The notes beneath the pieces were generated by a model that saw only the letters and a program-made list of their open reading frames with translations, did not search any database and had not been told where the DNA came from. A program made the translations under genes and the position numbers. A stretch of DNA of 64,000 nucleotides, taken from assembly GCA_041649115.1 (NCBI GenBank), contig JBAZNT010000005.1, positions 12,737 through 76,736 on the forward strand. The letters are read 5' to 3'. The DNA comes from Candidatus Omnitrophota bacterium. Its GTDB lineage: Bacteria > Omnitrophota > Gorgyraeia > Gygaellales > Profunditerraquicolaceae. Positions 32,080-37,770 of this stretch are shown here, one piece after another; the first letter of the stretch is position 1, and each line of letters starts with the position of its first letter.

Positions 32080-33924
32080 ATGGAGAGAAGCTTAAAAAAA
32101 GAACTTAGCCTCCTGGATATTTTCTGCGTGGCAACCGGCGCAATGATTAGCTCCGGGCTGTTTATCCTTCCGGGTCTGGCCTTCGGCATGGCAGGTCCGG
32201 CGGTCATCCTTTCATATATAATAGCGGGTATTTTGTGCATACCGACGCTTCTGAGCATGGCTGAATTGTCTACTGCCATGCCTCGCGCAGGAGGGGATTA
32301 TTTTTATATCATGAGAGGCTTTGGCCCTCTTTTCGGAACCGTGGCGGGTTTTAGTACCTGGTTCTCTTTAAGCTTAAAGGGGGCTTTCGCGCTTTTAGGG
32401 ATGGGAGCTTATTTGACGCTGATAACACGGCTCCCTTTAAATATGATCGCATTAGCCTGTTGCCTGATTTTTATTTTTTTGAACCTGATAGGAGCCAAGG
32501 AGGCCGGAAAACTGCAGGTTTTTTTAGTATTAGGGCTTTTGGGTGTCCTGTTTATCTATATTATCTGGGGGGTTAAGACCGTTAACCCCATGAATCTTTC
32601 TCCTTTCTTTTCCGAAGGCCTGGCTCCGATTTTTTCCACGGCGAGTTTTGTGTTTATTTCCTACGGCGGCTTATCCAAGGTAGCGGCGTTATCGGAGGAG
32701 ATAAAGAACCCCGGTAAAAACTTACCGCTGGGAATGATTTTTTCTCTCCTGGTTACATCCGTATTATACGCATTTATCATATACGTAACCATAGGGGTTA
32801 TGCCTGCGGAAGGCCTTAAGTATACCCTTACCCCGATTTCAGACGGCGCTGCAGTCTTCGGAGGGGGGCTGCTTAAGATAGTTATAAGTATCGGAGCATT
32901 TTTAGCTTTTATTTCAACCGCAAACGCGGCGATAATGACTGCTTCGCGTTACCCGCTGGGGATGAGCAGGGATAAACTTCTGCCGCCGGTCTTTCAGAAG
33001 ATAAGTCTTAGGTTTAAGACCCCGCATTTTTCCATCCTTGCCACGGGCTCTTTTATGATTGCGGTCATCCTGTTTTTGAAGCTGGAATTACTGGTGAAGG
33101 TCGCCTCAAGCGTATTAATCCTGCTTTATATTTTCGCCAATCTGACCCTGATTTTATTCAGAGAAAGCAGGATTTTGAGTTACAGGCCGAAATTCCGGTC
33201 TCCGTTATACCCCTATATGCAGATTTTCGGAATCCTGGGAGGGGCATTTCTTCTTATTGAGATGGGGTCGTTCATTCTTTTTCTAACCGGCCTATTTCTC
33301 TTCCTGGGGGTCGCCTGGTATAAGGCTTATGCACAGAAAAGAGCAACGCAGGACTCCGCCCTTATATACGCGTTGGAAAAACTGGTCGCCGGTGATAAAG
33401 GGCTTGCTTCGGAAAGCCTCCTTACCGAATTGAAGGATATCGTTATCCAGCGCGACGAGGTTATAGAGGACAAGTTTCATAAATTAATCGAGACAAGCCC
33501 CATCCTGGACATAGATGTTCCTTTGGGGGCGGAAGATTTCTTCAGGGAGGCCTCAGCCGTTTTGGCACGGGAATTAAATATGGGGCCGCAGGAATTATTG
33601 AGTAAGTTTATGGAAAGAGAGCGCGAGAGCAGCACCGTTCTAAGGAAAGGCTTGGCGATCCCCCATATCATCGTGGAGGGCAAGGGGGTCTTTAAAATAG
33701 TCCTGGTAAGGGCGAAAGCCGGTATTATCTTTCCCGGAGATAATGTTGCGCATATCGCCTTTATCCTTGCGGGGTCTTTTGACGAACGCAACCTGCATTT
33801 AAAATCCCTGGCCGCCATTGCCCAGATTACCCAGCAGCCGGAGTTTGACAAAAAGTGGCTGTCGGCAGGAGGCAAGGAAGATTTAAGGAATATCGTGCTT
33901 TTAGCAGAGAGAAGAAGGGGATAG
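32080..33924 (+). CDS. APC-family amino-acid permease fused to a C-terminal PTS EIIA(Ntr)-like (PTS_EIIA_2) domain
   Basis: About 12 TM helices with an N-terminus LSLLDIFCVATGAMISSGLF. The C-terminal 150 aa carry RERESSTVLRKGLAIPH...HIAFILAG...HLKSLAAIAQ, matching the PtsN-type pattern (GiAiPH phospho-His context). Confidence 0.8.
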   Translation: MERSLKKELSLLDIFCVATGAMISSGLFILPGLAFGMAGPAVILSYIIAGILCIPTLLSMAELSTAMPRAGGDYFYIMRGFGPLFGTVAGFSTWFSLSLKGAFALLGMGAYLTLITRLPLNMIALACCLIFIFLNLIGAKEAGKLQVFLVLGLLGVLFIYIIWGVKTVNPMNLSPFFSEGLAPIFSTASFVFISYGGLSKVAALSEEIKNPGKNLPLGMIFSLLVTSVLYAFIIYVTIGVMPAEGLKYTLTPISDGAAVFGGGLLKIVISIGAFLAFISTANAAIMTASRYPLGMSRDKLLPPVFQKISLRFKTPHFSILATGSFMIAVILFLKLELLVKVASSVLILLYIFANLTLILFRESRILSYRPKFRSPLYPYMQIFGILGGAFLLIEMGSFILFLTGLFLFLGVAWYKAYAQKRATQDSALIYALEKLVAGDKGLASESLLTELKDIVIQRDEVIEDKFHKLIETSPILDIDVPLGAEDFFREASAVLARELNMGPQELLSKFMERERESSTVLRKGLAIPHIIVEGKGVFKIVLVRAKAGIIFPGDNVAHIAFILAGSFDERNLHLKSLAAIAQITQQPEFDKKWLSAGGKEDLRNIVLLAERRRG

Positions 33925-34154: not shown

Positions 34155-34916
34155 ATGAAACAGTGGTACGAGTCGTTATTTGAGAATTATGCGCATAAAT
34201 ACGATCAAGAGCGCTATGTCCACGGGACATCCGGGGAATGTGATTCTATTGAGCAGGAGATAAACCGCGATAAGTCGATAAAGATTCTAGATATCGGCTG
34301 CGGTACCGGCCGCCACGCTATTGAACTGGCAAAAAGAGGGTACCAGGTAACGGGAATCGATTTATCCGAGTCACAGCTTAAGAGGGCGGGAGAAAAAGCG
34401 AAAGAGCAGGGAGTGGAGGTTGACTTCCGGAGGCATGACGCAAGAAACCTTCCTTTTAAAGGCGATTTCGACCTGGCAATCATGCTCTGCGAGGGCGGTT
34501 TTTCATTGATGGAAACGGATGAAATGAATTTTGAAATACTCAAGAGTGCAACCAAGTCATTAAAAAATAACGGGAAGTTTATATTCACCGCATTAAACGG
34601 GTTATTTCCGCTGCTCCACTCGGTAAAGGAATTTTATGAGTCGGCGGGTAAAGAAGGCGGATCGGTTTGTAAAAGCATCTCCTTTGACCTGATGACCTTC
34701 CGCGATTATAACCGCGTTGAATTTGAAGATGACGCGGGAAATAGAAAAGTATTGGAATGCAATGAGCGATGTTACGTTCCAAGCGAAATCACCTGGCTGC
34801 TCCATTCGCTTGGGTATAAGAAGATAGAGATCTTTGGAGCCAAGCTCGGGGTTTATTCAAGGAAAGATAAATTAAGCCCGGAAGATTTTGAAATGCTGGT
34901 TATCGCGGAAAAATAA
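34155..34916 (+). CDS. Class I SAM-dependent methyltransferase
   Basis: Motif I ILDIGCGTGRHAIELA, post-I TGIDLSE, and motif II/III DLAIMLC. Confidence 0.85.
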   Translation: MKQWYESLFENYAHKYDQERYVHGTSGECDSIEQEINRDKSIKILDIGCGTGRHAIELAKRGYQVTGIDLSESQLKRAGEKAKEQGVEVDFRRHDARNLPFKGDFDLAIMLCEGGFSLMETDEMNFEILKSATKSLKNNGKFIFTALNGLFPLLHSVKEFYESAGKEGGSVCKSISFDLMTFRDYNRVEFEDDAGNRKVLECNERCYVPSEITWLLHSLGYKKIEIFGAKLGVYSRKDKLSPEDFEMLVIAEK

Positions 34917-34984
34917 AGTAAGAGGCGCAACACGTAGGATATCAACCCTTTGTTTTATCTCAACGAAAATCAAAGGAGGCGGGT

Positions 34985-36526
34985 ATGCGTAAAGATGTCC
35001 GGTTATCTGCTGAAGTCCAGCTGGCCTGGAAGGTAATGACCTGCAGGGGATTAAGGACGACTTATGATAAGAACAGCCCATGCCAGTGGTTCAACCTTCA
35101 TTACGGTCCTTATCCCGCCTATACGACCGGGGAGCTGCCGATTGACATAGTGAAGGAAGGCGGATCGCGTTCTATAAAAGGCAAATGCGCCGGAAAGCGC
35201 TATAACATCCCGGAATTGATGAGCGGCTGCCGCAAAGCTCCCATAATGAGCATAGGGATAAATCCGAACCTGACCGCATATCAGATCAGTGTTAACGGGG
35301 CAACGTGGTGTTATCCCTATTTCGACGACATAGAAAAATACGCCCATTATTTCCGTTATCGCACCGTGAACCAGGAACGTTTTGACGTCGCTTTCGTCAA
35401 GAAATACGTTGTGCTCGGCACGGCAGTCAAAACCGCCGCTAAAGGTTATATTGTGAGCATCTCGCGCGGTACGGATAACATTACCATAAACCTTAAATAT
35501 GCTAAATCGGGGAGCCGCACTTTGCGCGTTCCCATGAGTTATAATGTCTTCTACGATGCCAACGAAGCAAACAGGAATTTTGCAAAAGGCGATGTCCTTG
35601 CCGGGCTCGTAGAATTGCCTGATGACGCCGCGGCAGAGGTAATCCAGGAGCCGGTAGGCTATTACAGGCAATTCAATGCTTTCCTGGAGAGGTTTAAACA
35701 GCTCGCCGGGAAACCGCTGGCGGATTCTAAGTTCCAGATTGGGGAAGATGCCTGTCAGGCGGATATGGTGCCGTGCGCAAGCCCGGGATGGAATGCTTAT
35801 TTCCCGGATAGCGTATGTGATGATATCGTAGAAGAATGCGTCAAGAAGAGGCTGTATCTTGCCCAGCAGCTGATTCAGACCCGTCCGGCAATAATTATTT
35901 TTGCGGGAAACGCCGCGCTGAATATGTTCCTGCGGGTTTTTAACGGCAAGGTGGTTCCTGCCATAGACTCTTCCGAAGATACGCTGCAATTGCTTAAGAA
36001 AGCCCTGAAAACCCCTTATTGGCTTAGTGTCGGCAAAGGGAGGCATTCTTTTAAATCCAGGCTTGTCTTCTCGCCGCATTTCTCTTACGGGGATAATTTT
36101 CTCGCCGGGTGCAGGATGGCCGCTAAACAGTGGGAGGAATTCAGCGCTAAATTCCCGGCTGATGTAAAGCTGGTTGAATCCCGCAAGAGAGAGGTTTTTG
36201 GAGGGGTTATCCTGGTGCTTGATCCCTCTAAAAAGCCCTGGGCGGATACCTTAACTGCCGGTGCAGTGAAGATGCTGACCCCCATTTATATGGACCCCGT
36301 TGACCTGATAGCGAGGATAATCCTGCAGGAATATGAAGCGGGAAGGATCAGGCTGGATGAGCGGACCGGACACCTTGTAAGGACCGCCGGCCCGTGTCGG
36401 TTCTGCGGAAACGAACTCTTCCGTTTTAAGGAAGCATGCCCATACGGGAAACTGGGCATTGTTTCCAAAGCAAAAGATTCAGCGCGGGAAATTGCCAGGG
36501 CCGCAAAATTGGCAGTGCGCGGATGA
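34985..36526 (+). CDS. Hypothetical 513-aa protein; possible divergent uracil-DNA-glycosylase-superfamily fold
   Basis: GGAGG Shine-Dalgarno lies 7 nt upstream. APIMSIGINPNL resembles the GINPG motif of MUG/TDG-type UDGs. IIIFAGNAA...RLVFSPHFSYG resembles the late HPS/NPS motif. Many Cys are present, including the C-terminal CRFCGN...CPYGK. The function call is weak. Confidence 0.5.
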   Translation: MRKDVRLSAEVQLAWKVMTCRGLRTTYDKNSPCQWFNLHYGPYPAYTTGELPIDIVKEGGSRSIKGKCAGKRYNIPELMSGCRKAPIMSIGINPNLTAYQISVNGATWCYPYFDDIEKYAHYFRYRTVNQERFDVAFVKKYVVLGTAVKTAAKGYIVSISRGTDNITINLKYAKSGSRTLRVPMSYNVFYDANEANRNFAKGDVLAGLVELPDDAAAEVIQEPVGYYRQFNAFLERFKQLAGKPLADSKFQIGEDACQADMVPCASPGWNAYFPDSVCDDIVEECVKKRLYLAQQLIQTRPAIIIFAGNAALNMFLRVFNGKVVPAIDSSEDTLQLLKKALKTPYWLSVGKGRHSFKSRLVFSPHFSYGDNFLAGCRMAAKQWEEFSAKFPADVKLVESRKREVFGGVILVLDPSKKPWADTLTAGAVKMLTPIYMDPVDLIARIILQEYEAGRIRLDERTGHLVRTAGPCRFCGNELFRFKEACPYGKLGIVSKAKDSAREIARAAKLAVRG

Positions 36527-36553
36527 TTGCAGGAGGCAAGTCCTCCGTCTGGT

Positions 36554-36583
36554 TTGACATTATGGCGGCCTAAGTGTTAATAT
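36554..36583 (+). promoter_or_regulatory. Putative promoter of the miaB-like operon
   Basis: TTGACA-18 nt-TAATAT, about 35 nt upstream of ATG 36619. Confidence 0.35.
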
Positions 36584-36618
36584 GATGCAAGACGGTAATC
36601 GACTTGGATGGATCTATT

Positions 36619-37770
36619 ATGTCTAAAGTTTATGTTAGGACTTTCGGATGTCAGATGAATGTGCGGGATTCGGAGGTGATCTCCGGGCTCCTTCATAAGG
36701 AGGGCTATCGGCTGGTTGATGAGGCTTCAGACGCAGACATCGTGATATTCAATACCTGTTCGGTCAGGCAGCATGCCGAGGATAAGGTCTGGAGTGAGGT
36801 AGGCCGTATTGCCAAAGCCGGCGGCAGGAACCGAAGGCCTATTATCGGGATTATAGGGTGCATGGCGCAGACGCACAAGGAGGGAGTGTTTACGTGCGCT
36901 CCGGAAGTGGATTTTGCGGCCGGACCTTCGGATATTCACCGGATTCCCGCGATCGTTAAGAGGTTATTGGAGAATAAAAAGACGCCGGCAGCAGGCAGGC
37001 TCTTTGAAGTGAAGATTTGGGAAACGGATTCGGCTTCGAGGCCGGAAGAAATCTATCATACTGCCTTGCGCCAGGATAAAGAGCATTCCTTCGTAGTGAT
37101 ATCGGAGGGTTGTTCTAATTTCTGTTCTTATTGCGTTGTGCCGTATGCCCGGGGTAGCCTGCGTCACAGGAGGCACGTGGATATCCTGCGAGAGATAAGG
37201 GAAATGCTTGATTCCGGCGTAAAGCTCATAACGCTGCTGGGTCAGAATGTGAATTCTTATTGTGACGATAATGTGGGGTTTATCGGGCTCTTGGAAGAAG
37301 TTAACCGCCTCAAAGGGCTTAAGGAATTTAGCTTTGTGACCTCCCACCCCCGCGATGCTACTCCGCGTTTGTTTGAGGCTATTGCCGGGCTGGATAAGCT
37401 CAAGAAATGCCTGCATCTTCCGGTGCAGTCCGGTTCAGACCGTATCCTTTCTCTGATGAACCGCGGCTACAGCAGATTTTTTTATTTGGATTTAGTGGAT
37501 AATTATCGTAAGATAGTAACAAAGGGGACTCTTACTACCGATATCATTGTGGGCTTCCCCGGGGAGACCGATAAGGATTTTAAGGATACCTATAATCTGG
37601 TAAAAGAGGTTGGTTTTGACTCCGCCTACATCTTTAAGTATTCCCCGCGCCCGCATACAAAGGCATTGGAGTTTGAAGATAACGTAGCCCAGCAAGAAAA
37701 GGAGAGGAGGCACCGCTTGGTTTTAGAATTACAGAAAGATATCTCCCGCAAGAAAAGCAGGAAGATATGA
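36619..37770 (+). CDS. miaB: MiaB-like radical-SAM methylthiotransferase lacking the C-terminal TRAM domain
   Basis: MSKVYVRTFGCQMN (UPF0004 domain), radical-SAM CSNFCSYCVVP, and FKYSPRPHT. The protein ends ~25 aa later, where TRAM normally begins. Confidence 0.85.
   Translation: MSKVYVRTFGCQMNVRDSEVISGLLHKEGYRLVDEASDADIVIFNTCSVRQHAEDKVWSEVGRIAKAGGRNRRPIIGIIGCMAQTHKEGVFTCAPEVDFAAGPSDIHRIPAIVKRLLENKKTPAAGRLFEVKIWETDSASRPEEIYHTALRQDKEHSFVVISEGCSNFCSYCVVPYARGSLRHRRHVDILREIREMLDSGVKLITLLGQNVNSYCDDNVGFIGLLEEVNRLKGLKEFSFVTSHPRDATPRLFEAIAGLDKLKKCLHLPVQSGSDRILSLMNRGYSRFFYLDLVDNYRKIVTKGTLTTDIIVGFPGETDKDFKDTYNLVKEVGFDSAYIFKYSPRPHTKALEFEDNVAQQEKERRHRLVLELQKDISRKKSRKI

What the first reader, a model, noticed from the sequence alone, without database searches (positions are those of the whole stretch)
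34155..36526. Orphan 513-aa Cys-rich protein with UDG-superfamily-like motifs, paired with a SAM methyltransferase
**Seen in sequence**
- The ORF at 34985-36526 has a strong Shine-Dalgarno and protein-like composition. The long antisense ORF at 35051-36079 does not.
- I cannot place it in a named family.
- APIMSIGINPNL resembles motif 1 (G-I-N-P-G) of MUG/TDG family-2 uracil-DNA glycosylases.
- AIIIFAGNAA...RLVFSPHFSYG resembles the late beta-strand plus the H/N-P-S loop of UDG-fold enzymes.
- The two motifs are separated by a ~250-aa insertion that includes a beta-rich segment.
- Several Cys (C20, C33, C68, C82, C109 and CRFCGN...CPYGK) could bind a metal or an Fe-S cluster, as in family 4/5 UDGs.
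- A class-I SAM methyltransferase gene lies 68 nt upstream, on the same strand.

**Inference (weak)**
- This may be a two-gene nucleic-acid modification, repair or base-excision module.
- It is flanked by unrelated transport and tRNA-modification genes, so it looks like an inserted accessory pair.
Basis: inference. Interest (0 to 1): 0.55.

Follow-up and report, generated by a model that had tools for sequence, protein, structure and literature searches.

The report
New iron-sulfur UDG-superfamily glycosylase family
The 513-aa gene is real and is a lone copy of a rare, unnamed branch of the uracil-DNA-glycosylase superfamily that probably holds an iron-sulfur cluster; it is not functionally tied to the neighbouring methyltransferase, and in other bacteria it sits in a conserved, undescribed cluster with a nucleosidase, DNase II, phosphodiesterases and oxygenase-like proteins.

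Summary
The ORF (34985-36526, +), its Shine-Dalgarno, its motifs and the methyltransferase gene 68 nt upstream are all present.

**Not an orphan.** The protein has at least 370 relatives, found in 166 species across many phyla. All are labelled hypothetical, and no Pfam, NCBIfam or PADLOC model covers the family.

**UDG-superfamily membership is supported.**
- 27 of 61 members hit Pfam UDG.
- Profile-profile alignment to family-4 UDGs gives E about 1e-4.
- The best fold matches of a pLDDT-93 model are family-4 UDG, UdgX and TDG.
- Motif A is GINPN, as in MUG/SMUG. Four invariant Cys align with the family-4 [4Fe-4S] ligands. An invariant Asp replaces the uracil-reading Asn. Four further invariant Cys suggest a second metal site.

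**The methyltransferase pairing is not supported.**
- The methyltransferase is a core Candidatus Omnitrophota gene.
- One relative has it without the UDG-like gene, and another has the UDG-like gene without it. Both sit in the same variable slot upstream of miaB.

**Partners elsewhere.** The recurrent partners are an ABM-like tandem-ferredoxin protein, an MTAN-like nucleosidase (often fused), a GDPD phosphodiesterase, DNase II, a metallophosphoesterase and a ferritin-like protein.

**Best reading:** an Fe-S N-glycosylase acting on a non-uracil base.

The parts
34972..34979 (+). Shine-Dalgarno AAAGGAGG, 5 nt upstream of the ATG
   Evidence: Read directly from the sequence.
34985..36526 (+). 513-aa ORF: a lone member of an unnamed UDG-superfamily family (called 'UDGL' here)
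   Evidence: ORF. Homologs. Pfam UDG in 27 of 61 members. AF2 model pLDDT 93.3, pTM 0.92. Foldseek top hits are UDG-family enzymes.
35042..35083 (+). N-terminal cysteine pair C20...C33. It is CxxC in most relatives; here an 11-residue insert separates the two. These are the proposed first two [4Fe-4S] ligands.
   Evidence: C33 invariant and C20 in at least 90% of members. A global hhalign pairs them with C13 and C16 of Thermus UDG 1UI0 (ni2 -glob, E 7e-5).
35225..35269 (+). G81-C-R-K-A-P-I-M-S-I-G-I-N-P-N95: strand beta-1 plus motif A (GINPN). N93 sits at the catalytic Asp/Asn position, and C82 is invariant.
   Evidence: Invariant columns. Aligns to AKLMIVGEGP of 1UI0. Strand 87-91 in the model. 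Family motifs taken from PMC4787834.
35369..35659 (+). Beta-rich insertion (about residues 129-225) between beta-1/helices and beta-2 of the UDG core
   Evidence: DSSP strands 129-133, 154-183 and 204-223. Foldseek partial hits to Mop/ModE and RNAP beta' barrel-sandwich elements. Removing it lengthens the UDG profile alignment.
35744..35839 (+). E254-C285: strand beta-2, with invariant D260 at the position of the uracil-reading Asn, and C264 and C285, the proposed third and fourth [4Fe-4S] ligands
   Evidence: hhalign pairs D260 with N80 and C264 with C84 of 1UI0. C285 pairs with C100 in the ni1 -loc alignment and lies 3 residues off in the alignment. All three are invariant in 61 sequences.
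36059..36088 (+). R359-L-V-F-S-P-H-F-S-Y368: strand beta-4 plus a motif-B-like loop with invariant H365
   Evidence: Invariant R359, H365, F366 and S367. Strand 356-363. The Pfam UDG match on the query ends at residue 366, which is profile position 118 of 141.
36380..36445 (+). C-terminal Cys knuckle R466...C471-x-x-C474-x-N476...C485-x-Y487. Together with C82 it is proposed to form a second metal site.
   Evidence: R466, C471, C474, N476 and C485 are invariant.
36532..36546 (+). Terminator-like hairpin just after the stop codon, followed by a promoter-like site (36554-36583) before miaB
   Evidence: These are consensus matches at the frequency expected by chance, so this is weak evidence.
34155..34916 (+). 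Adjacent class-I SAM methyltransferase. It is a neighbour and possibly co-transcribed, but it is not a conserved partner.
   Evidence: Pfam Methyltransf_25/31/11. Core Omnitrophota gene. Found without UDGL in L094 and L096. No terminator-like site lies in the 68-nt gap.

Best explanation
The ORF encodes a stand-alone member of a rare, previously unnamed family of the uracil-DNA-glycosylase (UDG) superfamily.

**Shown**
- It has the four-strand alpha/beta UDG core.
- Motif A (GINPN) is of the MUG/SMUG type, with Asn93 at the water-activating position.
- His365 follows beta-4, where motif B lies.
- Four invariant cysteines (C20, C33, C264, C285) align with the [4Fe-4S] ligands of family-4 UDGs.
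- The core carries a beta-rich insertion of about 100 residues and a C-terminal extension of about 145 residues that holds three more invariant cysteines.
- The gene is not functionally linked to the upstream methyltransferase.

**Inferred**
- The protein binds a [4Fe-4S] cluster. It also binds a second metal through C82, C471, C474 and C485.
- It flips a base out of nucleic acid, most probably DNA, and hydrolyses the N-glycosidic bond as a monofunctional glycosylase.
- The invariant Asp260 sits where family-4 and family-1 enzymes have the uracil-reading Asn. The target is therefore probably not uracil but a base that offers hydrogen-bond donors, such as an amino-bearing, modified or damaged base.
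- In most other genomes the enzyme works inside a conserved cytoplasmic cluster. The cluster contains an MTAN/PNP-like nucleosidase (often fused to it), a GDPD phosphodiesterase, DNase II, a metallophosphoesterase, an ABM-like tandem-ferredoxin protein and a ferritin-like protein.
- That cluster would cut nucleic acid, release a base, and then oxidise or dispose of it.
- The window's Omnitrophota copy has lost, or never had, those partners and acts alone.
For: **Real, conserved gene**
- At least 370 homologs and 37 invariant columns.

**UDG homology**
- Pfam PF03167 is hit by 27 of 61 members (best E 5.4e-6), while every other Pfam family is hit by at most 1 member.
- hhalign against family-4 UDG/UdgX gives E 8e-4. 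With the insertion removed it gives E 1.3e-4 to 3.2e-4 over 108-117 columns.
- hhalign against MUG/TDG gives E 4e-4.

**Fold**
- AF2 model pLDDT 93.3, pTM 0.92.
- Foldseek PDB rank 1, 3 and 4 are family-4 UDGs (1ui1, 4zby, 1ui0), followed by UdgX, TDG and TM0511. Probabilities are 0.85-0.96 and TM-scores normalised to the target are about 0.45.
- In the viral structure library, COG1573 UDGs are among the top named matches.

**Residue equivalences**
- APIMSIGINP aligns with AKLMIVGEGP.
- D260 aligns with N80, C264 with C84, C285 with C100, and C20/C33 with C13/C16.

**Independence from the methyltransferase**
-.

**Partner genes**
- HMM counts in 93 loci: A4 53, A2 36, A5 36, A3 25, ferritin-like 21, metallophosphoesterase 18, DNase II 16.
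- Fusions: the nucleosidase-like domain is fused N-terminally in 12 loci, and the ferritin-like domain is fused C-terminally in 2.
- A2 matches MTA/SAH nucleosidases at E 1.9e-7. A3 matches GDPD at 2.6e-14. DNase II matches PF03265 at 1e-73 to 1e-83. A4 has an ABM-like tandem-ferredoxin fold.
- Bacterial DNase II is an active, non-secreted DNase (PMC5449587).
Against: - No fold match reaches E<=1e-3. hhalign probabilities are only 24-57%. The query itself is below Pfam's gathering score.
- Motif B could not be aligned by profile methods. The H365 equivalence rests on its position after beta-4.
- The family's median pI is acidic, about 5.6. Only the Omnitrophota clade is basic, at 8.3-9.3. This gives no family-wide support for DNA binding.
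- The commonest partners (an ABM-like protein, a nucleosidase, a ferritin-like protein, and LysR regulators in 6 loci) look like small-molecule metabolism rather than DNA repair.
- No partner is present in the window, so context from other genomes may not carry over.
Confidence: 0.55

Rival explanations
1. The UDG fold has been re-purposed for a non-DNA substrate. The enzyme would be an N-glycosidase, or a binding protein, for a nucleoside-, nucleotide- or oligonucleotide-like metabolite. It would sit in a catabolic or biosynthetic pathway whose other steps are phosphodiester cleavage, nucleoside hydrolysis and oxidation of the released heterocycle.
For: - The most frequent partner is an ABM-like tandem-ferredoxin protein, present in 53 of 93 loci.
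- The domain is fused to an MTAN/PNP-like nucleosidase.
- Ferritin-like (VioB-related) and DyP-like partners occur.
- LysR regulators lie next to the cluster in 6 loci.
- The family pI is acidic.
- No defence or repair genes recur nearby.
Against: - To my knowledge, every characterised UDG-superfamily member acts on a base in a nucleic-acid backbone.
- DNase II, a true DNase (PMC5449587), is a partner in 16 loci.
- The catalytic-type Asn and His and the Fe-S ligands typical of DNA glycosylases are invariant.
Confidence: 0.2
2. It is an anti-phage defence glycosylase like Brig1 and Brig2, which excise modified phage bases. DNase II and the phosphoesterases would finish off the damaged phage DNA.
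For: - UDG-fold enzymes have been co-opted for defence more than once (PMC11078745 and bioRxiv 10.1101/2025.10.29.685425).
- The family is rare and patchily distributed over many phyla.
- In Omnitrophota it occupies a variable slot.
- A nuclease is a partner in 16 loci.
- One or two solo loci lie near type I restriction or AbiE genes.
Against: - No PADLOC model matches it or any partner.
- No recurrent defence or mobile-element neighbours were found.
- The gene's GC (0.508) and GC3 (0.570) match the window means of 0.496 and 0.582.
- The partners are metabolic-type enzymes with LysR regulators.
- There are no viral relatives or obvious counter-defence context.
Confidence: 0.15
3. One reading: the methyltransferase and the UDG-like protein form a two-gene modification/excision module.
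For: - The two genes are on the same strand with a 68-nt gap and no terminator-like site between them.
- A class-I methyltransferase is also directly adjacent to the UDG-like gene in two distant loci, L007 and L042.
Against: - The methyltransferase is a core Omnitrophota gene that occurs without the UDG-like gene.
- The 81%-identical UDG-like gene lacks the methyltransferase.
- The 76-78% relatives have an A4-family gene upstream, not a methyltransferase.
- The three adjacent methyltransferases are only 25-31% identical to one another.
- Only 3 of 93 loci have one, roughly what chance would give for so common a domain.
- The methyltransferase resembles small-molecule UbiE/TehB types, not DNA methyltransferases.
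Confidence: 0.05
4. It is a catalytically inactive UDG-fold protein that binds or marks a lesion, like UdgX, or that serves as an Fe-S scaffold or sensor.
For: - UdgX shows that close relatives of family 4 can bind without turnover (PMC4787834).
- The large extra domains could mediate protein-protein contacts.
Against: - Residues at the catalytic positions (N93, H365) and around the pocket (D260, Y110/P111) are invariant across phyla. That pattern is what an active enzyme would show.
- The UdgX KRRIH loop is absent from the alignment.
Confidence: 0.05

Closest known systems
Family 4 UDG (Thermus thermophilus UDGA 1UI0, Thermotoga TM0511, Sulfolobus tokodaii UDG) and its relative UdgX
   Same: - These give the best profile-profile alignment (E about 1e-4, 108-117 columns) and the best fold matches.
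- The beta-1/motif A, beta-2 and beta-3 regions all align.
- All four [4Fe-4S] cysteine positions are matched: CxxC at the N-terminus plus two Cys after beta-2.
   Different: - Motif A is GINPN, not GE(A/G)PG.
- Asp replaces the uracil-reading Asn80.
- Motif B reads SPHFSY, not HPAAVL or HPAYLL.
- The protein is 2.5 times larger, with a beta-rich insertion of about 100 aa and a C-terminal extension of about 145 aa carrying three extra invariant Cys.
- An HMM of the family does not reach canonical UDGs in 1.84 billion representatives.
Family 2 (MUG/TDG) and family 3 (SMUG1) UDGs
   Same: - Motif A is G-I-N-P-x with Asn at the catalytic position (GINPG in family 2, GMNPG in family 3; PMC4787834).
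- hhalign against MUG/TDG gives E 4e-4.
- TDG is among the fold hits.
   Different: - Families 2 and 3 have no Fe-S cluster.
- Family 2 has no His in motif B (MPSSAR).
- Those enzymes are small single-domain proteins.
Brig1/Brig2 defence glycosylases (UDG fold)
   Same: They are divergent UDG-fold enzymes that act on non-uracil, modified bases and are patchily distributed.
   Different: - No sequence or PADLOC link was found.
- This family is not enriched near defence or mobile genes in the loci examined.
- It has conserved metabolic-type partners.
- A direct structural comparison with Brig1 was not run.
Bacterial DNase II (Burkholderia thailandensis, PDB 5I3E/5UNB)
   Same: It is a partner, not a homolog. 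Cytoplasmic DNase II homologs without a signal peptide lie in the same clusters in 16 of 93 loci.
   Different: The literature treats bacterial DNase II as a rarity in a few genera and does not discuss an operon context (PMC5449587). Here it is one component of a multi-phylum cluster. It is absent from the window.

Membership tests
UDG superfamily (Pfam PF03167 / UDG-like alpha-beta-alpha fold) | Sequence match to the superfamily profile | tested here: inconclusive
   The query scores 17.3 bits, below the 24.3-bit cut-off, with E 0.005. However, 27 of 61 family members hit PF03167 (best E 5.4e-6) and no other family recurs. hhalign against family 4 gives E 1e-4 to 8e-4.
UDG superfamily (Pfam PF03167 / UDG-like alpha-beta-alpha fold) | [quoted passage not shown] | tested here: met
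UDG superfamily (Pfam PF03167 / UDG-like alpha-beta-alpha fold) | Motif A loop after beta-1 and motif B loop after beta-4 | tested here: met
   GINPN follows strand 87-91 and aligns with GEGPG of 1UI0. SPHFSY, with invariant His, follows strand 356-363. Motif B is placed by position only, not by profile alignment.
UDG family 4 | Motif A GE(A/G)PG and motif B HPAAVL-type (PMC4787834) | tested here: not met
   Motif A is GINPN and motif B is SPHFSY, both invariant in 61 sequences.
UDG family 4 | Four cysteines that ligate a [4Fe-4S] cluster | tested here: met
   C20 and C33 align with C13 and C16. C264 aligns with C84. C285 aligns with, or within 3 residues of, C100 of 1UI0. All are invariant or nearly so. 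Actual metal content cannot be tested with these tools.
UDG family 4 | Asn after beta-2 that reads uracil (N80 in 1UI0; named from my own knowledge of family 1/4 structures) | tested here: not met
   The aligned residue is the invariant D260.
UDG family 2 (MUG/TDG) | Motif A GINPG with catalytic Asn | tested here: met
   GINPN matches four of five positions, including the Asn (motif from PMC4787834).
UDG family 2 (MUG/TDG) | Motif B MPSSAR/NPSGLS without His; no Fe-S cluster; compact protein of about 170-200 aa | tested here: not met
   The family has an invariant His365, eight conserved Cys and a length of 513 aa. hhalign against MUG/TDG gives E 4e-4 to 1e-3, no better than against family 4.
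   Orthologs of the methyltransferase are absent from all 92 other loci, and only 2 of them hold an unrelated class-I methyltransferase. The methyltransferase occurs without the UDG-like gene, and the UDG-like gene occurs without the methyltransferase.
Known anti-phage defence systems (PADLOC) | Match of the protein or its partners to a defence-system model | tested here: not met
   There are no hits for the UDG-like protein or for 10 partner proteins. The methyltransferase's 'mad2' hit covers only the generic methyltransferase domain.

The most novel reading that the evidence does not exclude
This is the founding example of a new UDG family defined by Fe-S ligands, an Asn-type motif A and Asp-type base reading. 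Its normal role would be in an undescribed cytoplasmic pathway. In that pathway DNase II, GDPD and metallophosphoesterase enzymes cut nucleic acid. The UDG-like enzyme and a fused MTAN-like nucleosidase release a particular non-canonical base. Cofactor-independent oxygenase-like (ABM-type) and ferritin-like di-iron proteins then destroy or transform that base. The system would dispose of, or defend against, modified or damaged nucleic acid, and it would be the first link between a UDG-fold enzyme and downstream base oxidation.
Probability: 0.3. Interest if true: 0.8.

Novelty: new variant of a known kind. Interest (0 to 1): 0.6.

Why it matters
- The UDG superfamily is usually described as six families plus UdgX (PMC4787834). 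New branches such as UdgX and Brig1/Brig2 have each revealed new chemistry or biology.
- This family mixes hallmarks that are normally separate: the MUG/SMUG Asn motif, the family-4/5 Fe-S ligands, and an Asp where uracil-specific enzymes have Asn. It also adds two new modules.
- It should therefore have a new substrate specificity and could be a useful base-excision tool.
- Its conserved clustering and fusion with a nucleosidase, bacterial DNase II, phosphodiesterases and oxygenase-like proteins points to an unstudied nucleic-acid processing pathway present in many phyla.
- That clustering also gives a first functional context for bacterial DNase II.
- For the window itself, the practical result is a corrected annotation. 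The gene is a lone accessory UDG-like glycosylase sitting next to, but not partnered with, a core Omnitrophota methyltransferase.

Tried and rejected
1. A single-sequence PDB search returned designed armadillo-repeat proteins (E 4e-5). No individual stretch was significant, and the match came from one short LPDDAAAEVIQEPV-like segment repeated in the target. The family profile found nothing. I rejected this as spurious.
3. PADLOC and NCBIfam gave no model for the protein or its partners.
4. The IMG/VR scan found no viral relatives. The BFVD fold search gave only weak hits.
5. Neighbours of 15 solo loci showed no recurrent Pfam family.
6. Four literature searches found no description of this family or cluster.
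7. The A4 and A5 partner families gave no PDB sequence hit. A4 and an A5 representative gave no Pfam hit.
8. Protein pI as a proxy for DNA binding was uninformative. The basic pI is a feature of the Omnitrophota clade, not of the family.
9. A profile alignment of motif B alone failed.
10. I considered and rejected the antisense ORF 35051-36079 as a gene.
Full report
**1. What is in the window**

The + strand ORF 34985-36526 encodes 513 aa. A strong Shine-Dalgarno (AAAGGAGG, 34972-34979) lies 5 nt before the ATG. A 253-aa class-I SAM methyltransferase gene (34155-34916) ends 68 nt upstream on the same strand. No terminator-like hairpin lies between the two genes. One follows the ORF's stop codon (36532-36546), and a promoter-like site precedes miaB. 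Those matches occur at chance frequency, so they are weak evidence. The 342-aa antisense ORF lies inside a + strand ORF whose product is conserved in hundreds of proteins, so it is not coding. GC and GC3 of the ORF (0.508 and 0.570) are typical of the window (means 0.496 and 0.582). The methyltransferase gene is lower in both (0.448 and 0.512).

**2. Not an orphan, but a rare unnamed family**

- A word-indexed search found 370 proteins at E<=1e-3, down to about 30% identity over 94-100% of the length. All are 'hypothetical protein'.
- A scan of one genome per species (185,579 species) found relatives in 166 species. The phyla include Desulfobacterota, Acidobacteriota, Bacteroidota, Proteobacteria, Spirochaetota, Lentisphaerota, Verrucomicrobiota and Actinomycetota.
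- An exhaustive HMM search of 1.84 billion 50%-identity representatives found only 240 matches, 113 of them at E<=1e-30. Many were fragments. Canonical UDGs were not reached.
- The family has no relatives in IMG/VR.
- NCBIfam and PADLOC have no model for it.

**3. Evidence for the UDG superfamily**

- The query hits Pfam PF03167 below threshold (E 0.005; residues 283-366 against profile positions 66-118).
- Scanned individually, 27 of 61 diverse members hit PF03167 (best E 5.4e-6). Every other Pfam family was hit by one member only.
- I recovered true family-4 UDG and UdgX sequences from the PDB and aligned them (A6).
- hhalign of the family profile against A6 gives E 8.4e-4. After deleting the insertion it gives E 1.3e-4 to 3.2e-4 over 108-117 columns, running from beta-1/motif A to beyond beta-3.
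- hhalign against MUG/TDG gives E 4.4e-4 to 1.1e-3.
- An AlphaFold2 model built on the 61-sequence alignment is confident (pLDDT 93.3, pTM 0.92).
- Its best Foldseek matches in the PDB are Thermus family-4 UDG (1ui1, 1ui0), Sulfolobus family-4 UDG (4zby), UdgX, human TDG and Thermotoga TM0511. Probabilities are 0.85-0.96 and TM-scores normalised to the target are about 0.45, but E values are only about 1e-2.
- Among viral models, the named hits are again COG1573 UDGs.

No single line is decisive. Together they make homology to the UDG superfamily very likely; I put it at about 0.85-0.9.

**4. Anatomy**

Invariant or nearly invariant residues map as follows.

- *N-terminal cysteines.* C20 and C33 are a CxxC in most members. 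The Omnitrophota clade has 11 extra residues between them. They pair with C13 and C16 of 1UI0 in the global alignment.
- *Motif A.* G81-C-R-K-A-P-I-M-x-I-G-I-N-P-N95 is beta-1 plus motif A. APIMSIGINP aligns with AKLMIVGEGP, which places N93 at the position of the catalytic Asp/Asn of families 1-3.
- *Motif definitions.* According to PMC4787834: family 1 GQDPY/HPSPLS; family 2 GINPG/MPSSAR; family 3 GMNPG/HPSPRN; family 4 GE(A/G)PG/HPAAVL; family 5 GLAPA/HPSPLN; family 6 GSLPG/SSSGAN. GINPN is therefore family-2/3-like.
- *Insertion.* Residues about 129-225 form a beta-rich insertion. Its partial fold matches are Mop/ModE-type and RNAP beta' barrel-sandwich elements.
- *Beta-2 and the second cysteine pair.* E254-D255...D260-M-V-x-C264 is beta-2. 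D260 aligns with N80 of 1UI0 and C264 with C84. C285 aligns with C100 in one alignment and lies three residues away in another.
- *Fe-S ligands.* C13, C16, C84 and C100 are the only cysteines conserved among the three family-4 sequences, and UdgX has His at the C84 position (A6). PMC4787834 states that the conserved family-4 cysteines form the Fe-S cluster and that UdgX has one Cys replaced by His. This matches.
- *Motif B.* R359-x-x-x-S-P-H365-F-S-Y is beta-4 plus a motif-B-like loop. The equivalence to HPxx rests on position and on the end of the Pfam match, not on a profile alignment.
- *C-terminal extension.* Residues 369-513 carry invariant R466, C471, C474, N476 and C485. Together with invariant C82, these are four further cysteines. 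I infer a second metal site (Zn or Fe-S) that ties the extension to the loop before beta-1. This could not be checked because model coordinates are not exposed.

**5. The methyltransferase is not a partner**

- From the UDG-like side:
  - The 81%-identical relative P0001 lies upstream of the same miaB-TPR/SPOR-miaA-hflX block. It is flanked by flavodoxin-like, thioredoxin and DsbD-like genes and has no methyltransferase.
  - The 78% and 76% relatives have an A4-family gene directly upstream (hmmsearch about 1e-94), and both also carry an A5-family gene.
  - The 50-55% relatives have GDPD-like, A4 and (in P0013) DNase II genes downstream.
  - tblastn of the methyltransferase against 92 loci gave only two weak hits of 25-31% identity.
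- From the methyltransferase side:
  - It is a core gene of Candidatus Omnitrophota, with more than 120 clusters at 77-100% identity. This also identifies the window's phylum.
  - In L094 the methyltransferase is 91% identical at the protein level and 86% at the DNA level. The order there is methyltransferase, 194 aa, 306 aa, GIY-YIG, miaB, SPOR, miaA, with no UDG-like gene or partner.
  - L096 is similar.
- The slot upstream of miaB is therefore variable, and the two genes are distributed independently.
- Caveat: unrelated class-I methyltransferases lie directly next to the UDG-like gene in L007 and L042. Three adjacent cases in 93 loci is about what chance would give for so common a domain, but a loose association cannot be excluded.

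**6. What the family keeps company with elsewhere**

I clustered the neighbours in 80 genome loci and ran HMM searches over 93 loci. The recurrent partners are listed below.

| Partner | Loci (of 93) | What it is |
|---|---|---|
| A4 | 53 | About 255 aa. No Pfam or PDB sequence match. AF2 pLDDT 92. Foldseek matches tandem ferredoxin-like ABM-type monooxygenases, anthrone oxidase, sulfur oxygenase reductase and chlorite dismutase/DyP at E 3e-7 to 1e-3 |
| A2 | 36 | About 370 aa. PDB profile hits to MTA/SAH nucleosidases and DeoD-type PNP, E 1.9e-7. Fused to the N-terminus of the UDG-like domain in 12 loci |
| A5 | 36 | About 310 aa, no match |
| A3 | 25 | About 515 aa. N-terminal GDPD domain (E 2.6e-14) plus a very conserved C-terminal domain of unknown family |
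| Ferritin-like | 21 | PF12902, VioB-related. Fused C-terminally in L016 and L035 |
| Metallophosphoesterase | 18 | Calcineurin-like phosphoesterase |
| DNase II | 16 | PF03265, E 1e-73 to 1e-83 |
| DyP-like peroxidase set | 7 | DyP-type peroxidase with two small partner families |

- None of the partners shows an obvious signal peptide. This agrees with the report that Burkholderia DNase II is an active, non-secreted DNase (PMC5449587).
- About 20 loci, including the window, carry the UDG-like gene alone. Those loci share no recurrent neighbour.
- The window encodes none of the partners anywhere in its 64 kb.
- PADLOC and NCBIfam do not recognise the cluster, and I found no paper describing it.

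**7. Most likely mechanism**

Shown: a UDG-type core, Asn93 in motif A, His365 after beta-4, four cysteines at the family-4 Fe-S positions, and Asp260 at the position of the uracil-reading Asn.

Inferred:
- The protein is a monofunctional N-glycosylase that flips a base into the pocket formed by motif A, beta-2 and motif B.
- Asn93 positions the water and His365 stabilises the leaving base.
- The [4Fe-4S] cluster plays the structural or DNA-contact role it has in families 4 and 5.
- From my own knowledge (Kavli et al. 1996, EMBO J), changing the equivalent Asn204 of human UNG to Asp converts it into a cytosine-DNA glycosylase. An invariant Asp here therefore argues for a non-uracil target that offers hydrogen-bond donors.
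- The fusions with a nucleosidase, and the clustering with DNase II and two kinds of phosphoesterase, suggest breakdown of nucleic acid to bases. The ABM-like, ferritin-like and DyP-like proteins suggest that the released heterocycle is then oxidised.
- The Omnitrophota copy acts alone.

I put about 0.55 on 'Fe-S N-glycosylase acting on a non-uracil base in nucleic acid, unrelated to the methyltransferase'.

**8. Rivals**

- (a) The UDG fold acts on a nucleoside- or nucleotide-like metabolite rather than on polymeric DNA (0.2). This is favoured by the small-molecule character of the commonest partners and by the acidic family pI, median about 5.6. Only the Omnitrophota clade is basic, at 8.3-9.3.
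- (b) A Brig-like defence glycosylase (0.15). The patchy distribution and the nuclease partner fit. The lack of defence or mobile-element context and the metabolic partners do not.
- (d) A non-catalytic binder like UdgX (0.05).

**9. Comparison and novelty**

The family works like, and descends from, the UDG superfamily. It fails the defining motifs of both family 4 and family 2. It is about equally distant from each in profile comparisons. It adds two modules and a second set of cysteines. It is best treated as a new family within the UDG superfamily, that is, a new variant of a known kind. Its gene-cluster context appears to be undescribed.

**10. Limits**

- Metal sites, substrate and activity are all inferred.
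- My gene calls in the loci are simple longest-ORF calls.
- Context from other phyla may not apply to the lone Omnitrophota gene.

Noticed in passing
L059:3641-13003 (also L053, L057, L058, L074, L075, L079, L032, L036): A conserved co-directional cluster in Acidobacteriota and Bacteroidota. It contains DNase II, an MTAN-like nucleosidase (fused or adjacent to the UDG-like domain), one or two A4 (ABM-like) genes, a metallophosphoesterase, the A5 family (unknown) and a ferritin-like PF12902 gene. No PADLOC or NCBIfam system matches it, and I found no paper describing it.
   Followed up: partly
L088:2314-10961, L001, L002, L084:9342-12300, L086:5444-9006: In Desulfobacterota the UDG-like/GDPD/A4/DNase II genes are flanked by a FIST-domain protein plus either a GGDEF diguanylate cyclase (upstream) or a class-III nucleotide cyclase (downstream). 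An old-yellow-enzyme flavoprotein is often present too. This hints at second-messenger control.
   Followed up: no
window 36604-37770: The MiaB-like gene (UPF0004 + radical SAM) is only 388 aa, starts with TTG and shows no TRAM domain in Pfam. The orthologs in L081 (388 aa) and L094 (383 aa) are equally short.
   Followed up: no
window 34916-36604 compared with L081:5310-9395 and L094:5762-8010: The stretch upstream of miaB is a variable slot in Omnitrophota genomes. In the window it holds the UDG-like gene. In L081 it holds a 168-aa gene, the UDG-like gene, thioredoxin, a DsbD-like gene and an HTH gene. In L094 it holds a 194-aa gene, a 306-aa gene and a GIY-YIG gene.
   Followed up: partly
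window 34155-34916: The methyltransferase matches the PADLOC model 'mad2' (mads_2) at E 9e-23, over its methyltransferase domain only. It is in fact a core Candidatus Omnitrophota gene with more than 120 clusters at 77-100% identity. Its substrate is unknown, and its best NCBIfam similarities (CpaM, UbiG, TehB) are all far below their cut-offs.
   Followed up: partly
window 32080-33924: An amino-acid permease (AA_permease_2) is fused to a C-terminal PTS EIIA-2 domain.
   Followed up: no
window 1-64000: The 44 longest non-nested ORFs of at least 200 aa are all on the + strand. The six minus-strand ORFs of that size lie inside them. ARAGORN finds no tRNA gene in the 64 kb.
   Followed up: no
L042:7467-9552: In a Cellvibrionaceae genome the UDG-like gene is followed by a class-I methyltransferase and then a 466-aa ORF containing FEHVFVGE...GGYHFW. 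From memory this resembles the EndoU/XendoU nuclease motif. I did not test it.
   Followed up: no
alignment A1 and loci WIN, L081, L083, L090-L092: UDG-like proteins of the Omnitrophota clade are strongly basic (pI 8.3-9.3), whereas the family median is about 5.6 whatever the gene context. I did not determine whether this reflects proteome-wide bias or a functional shift in the lone copies.
   Followed up: partly
16 loci with DNase II (e.g. L001, L002, L024, L048, L088): Bacterial DNase II is described in the literature as confined to a few genera and probably acquired from eukaryotes. Here it appears in Desulfobacterota, Acidobacteriota, Bacteroidota, Verrucomicrobiota and Burkholderia, always next to this UDG-like family.
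   Followed up: partly
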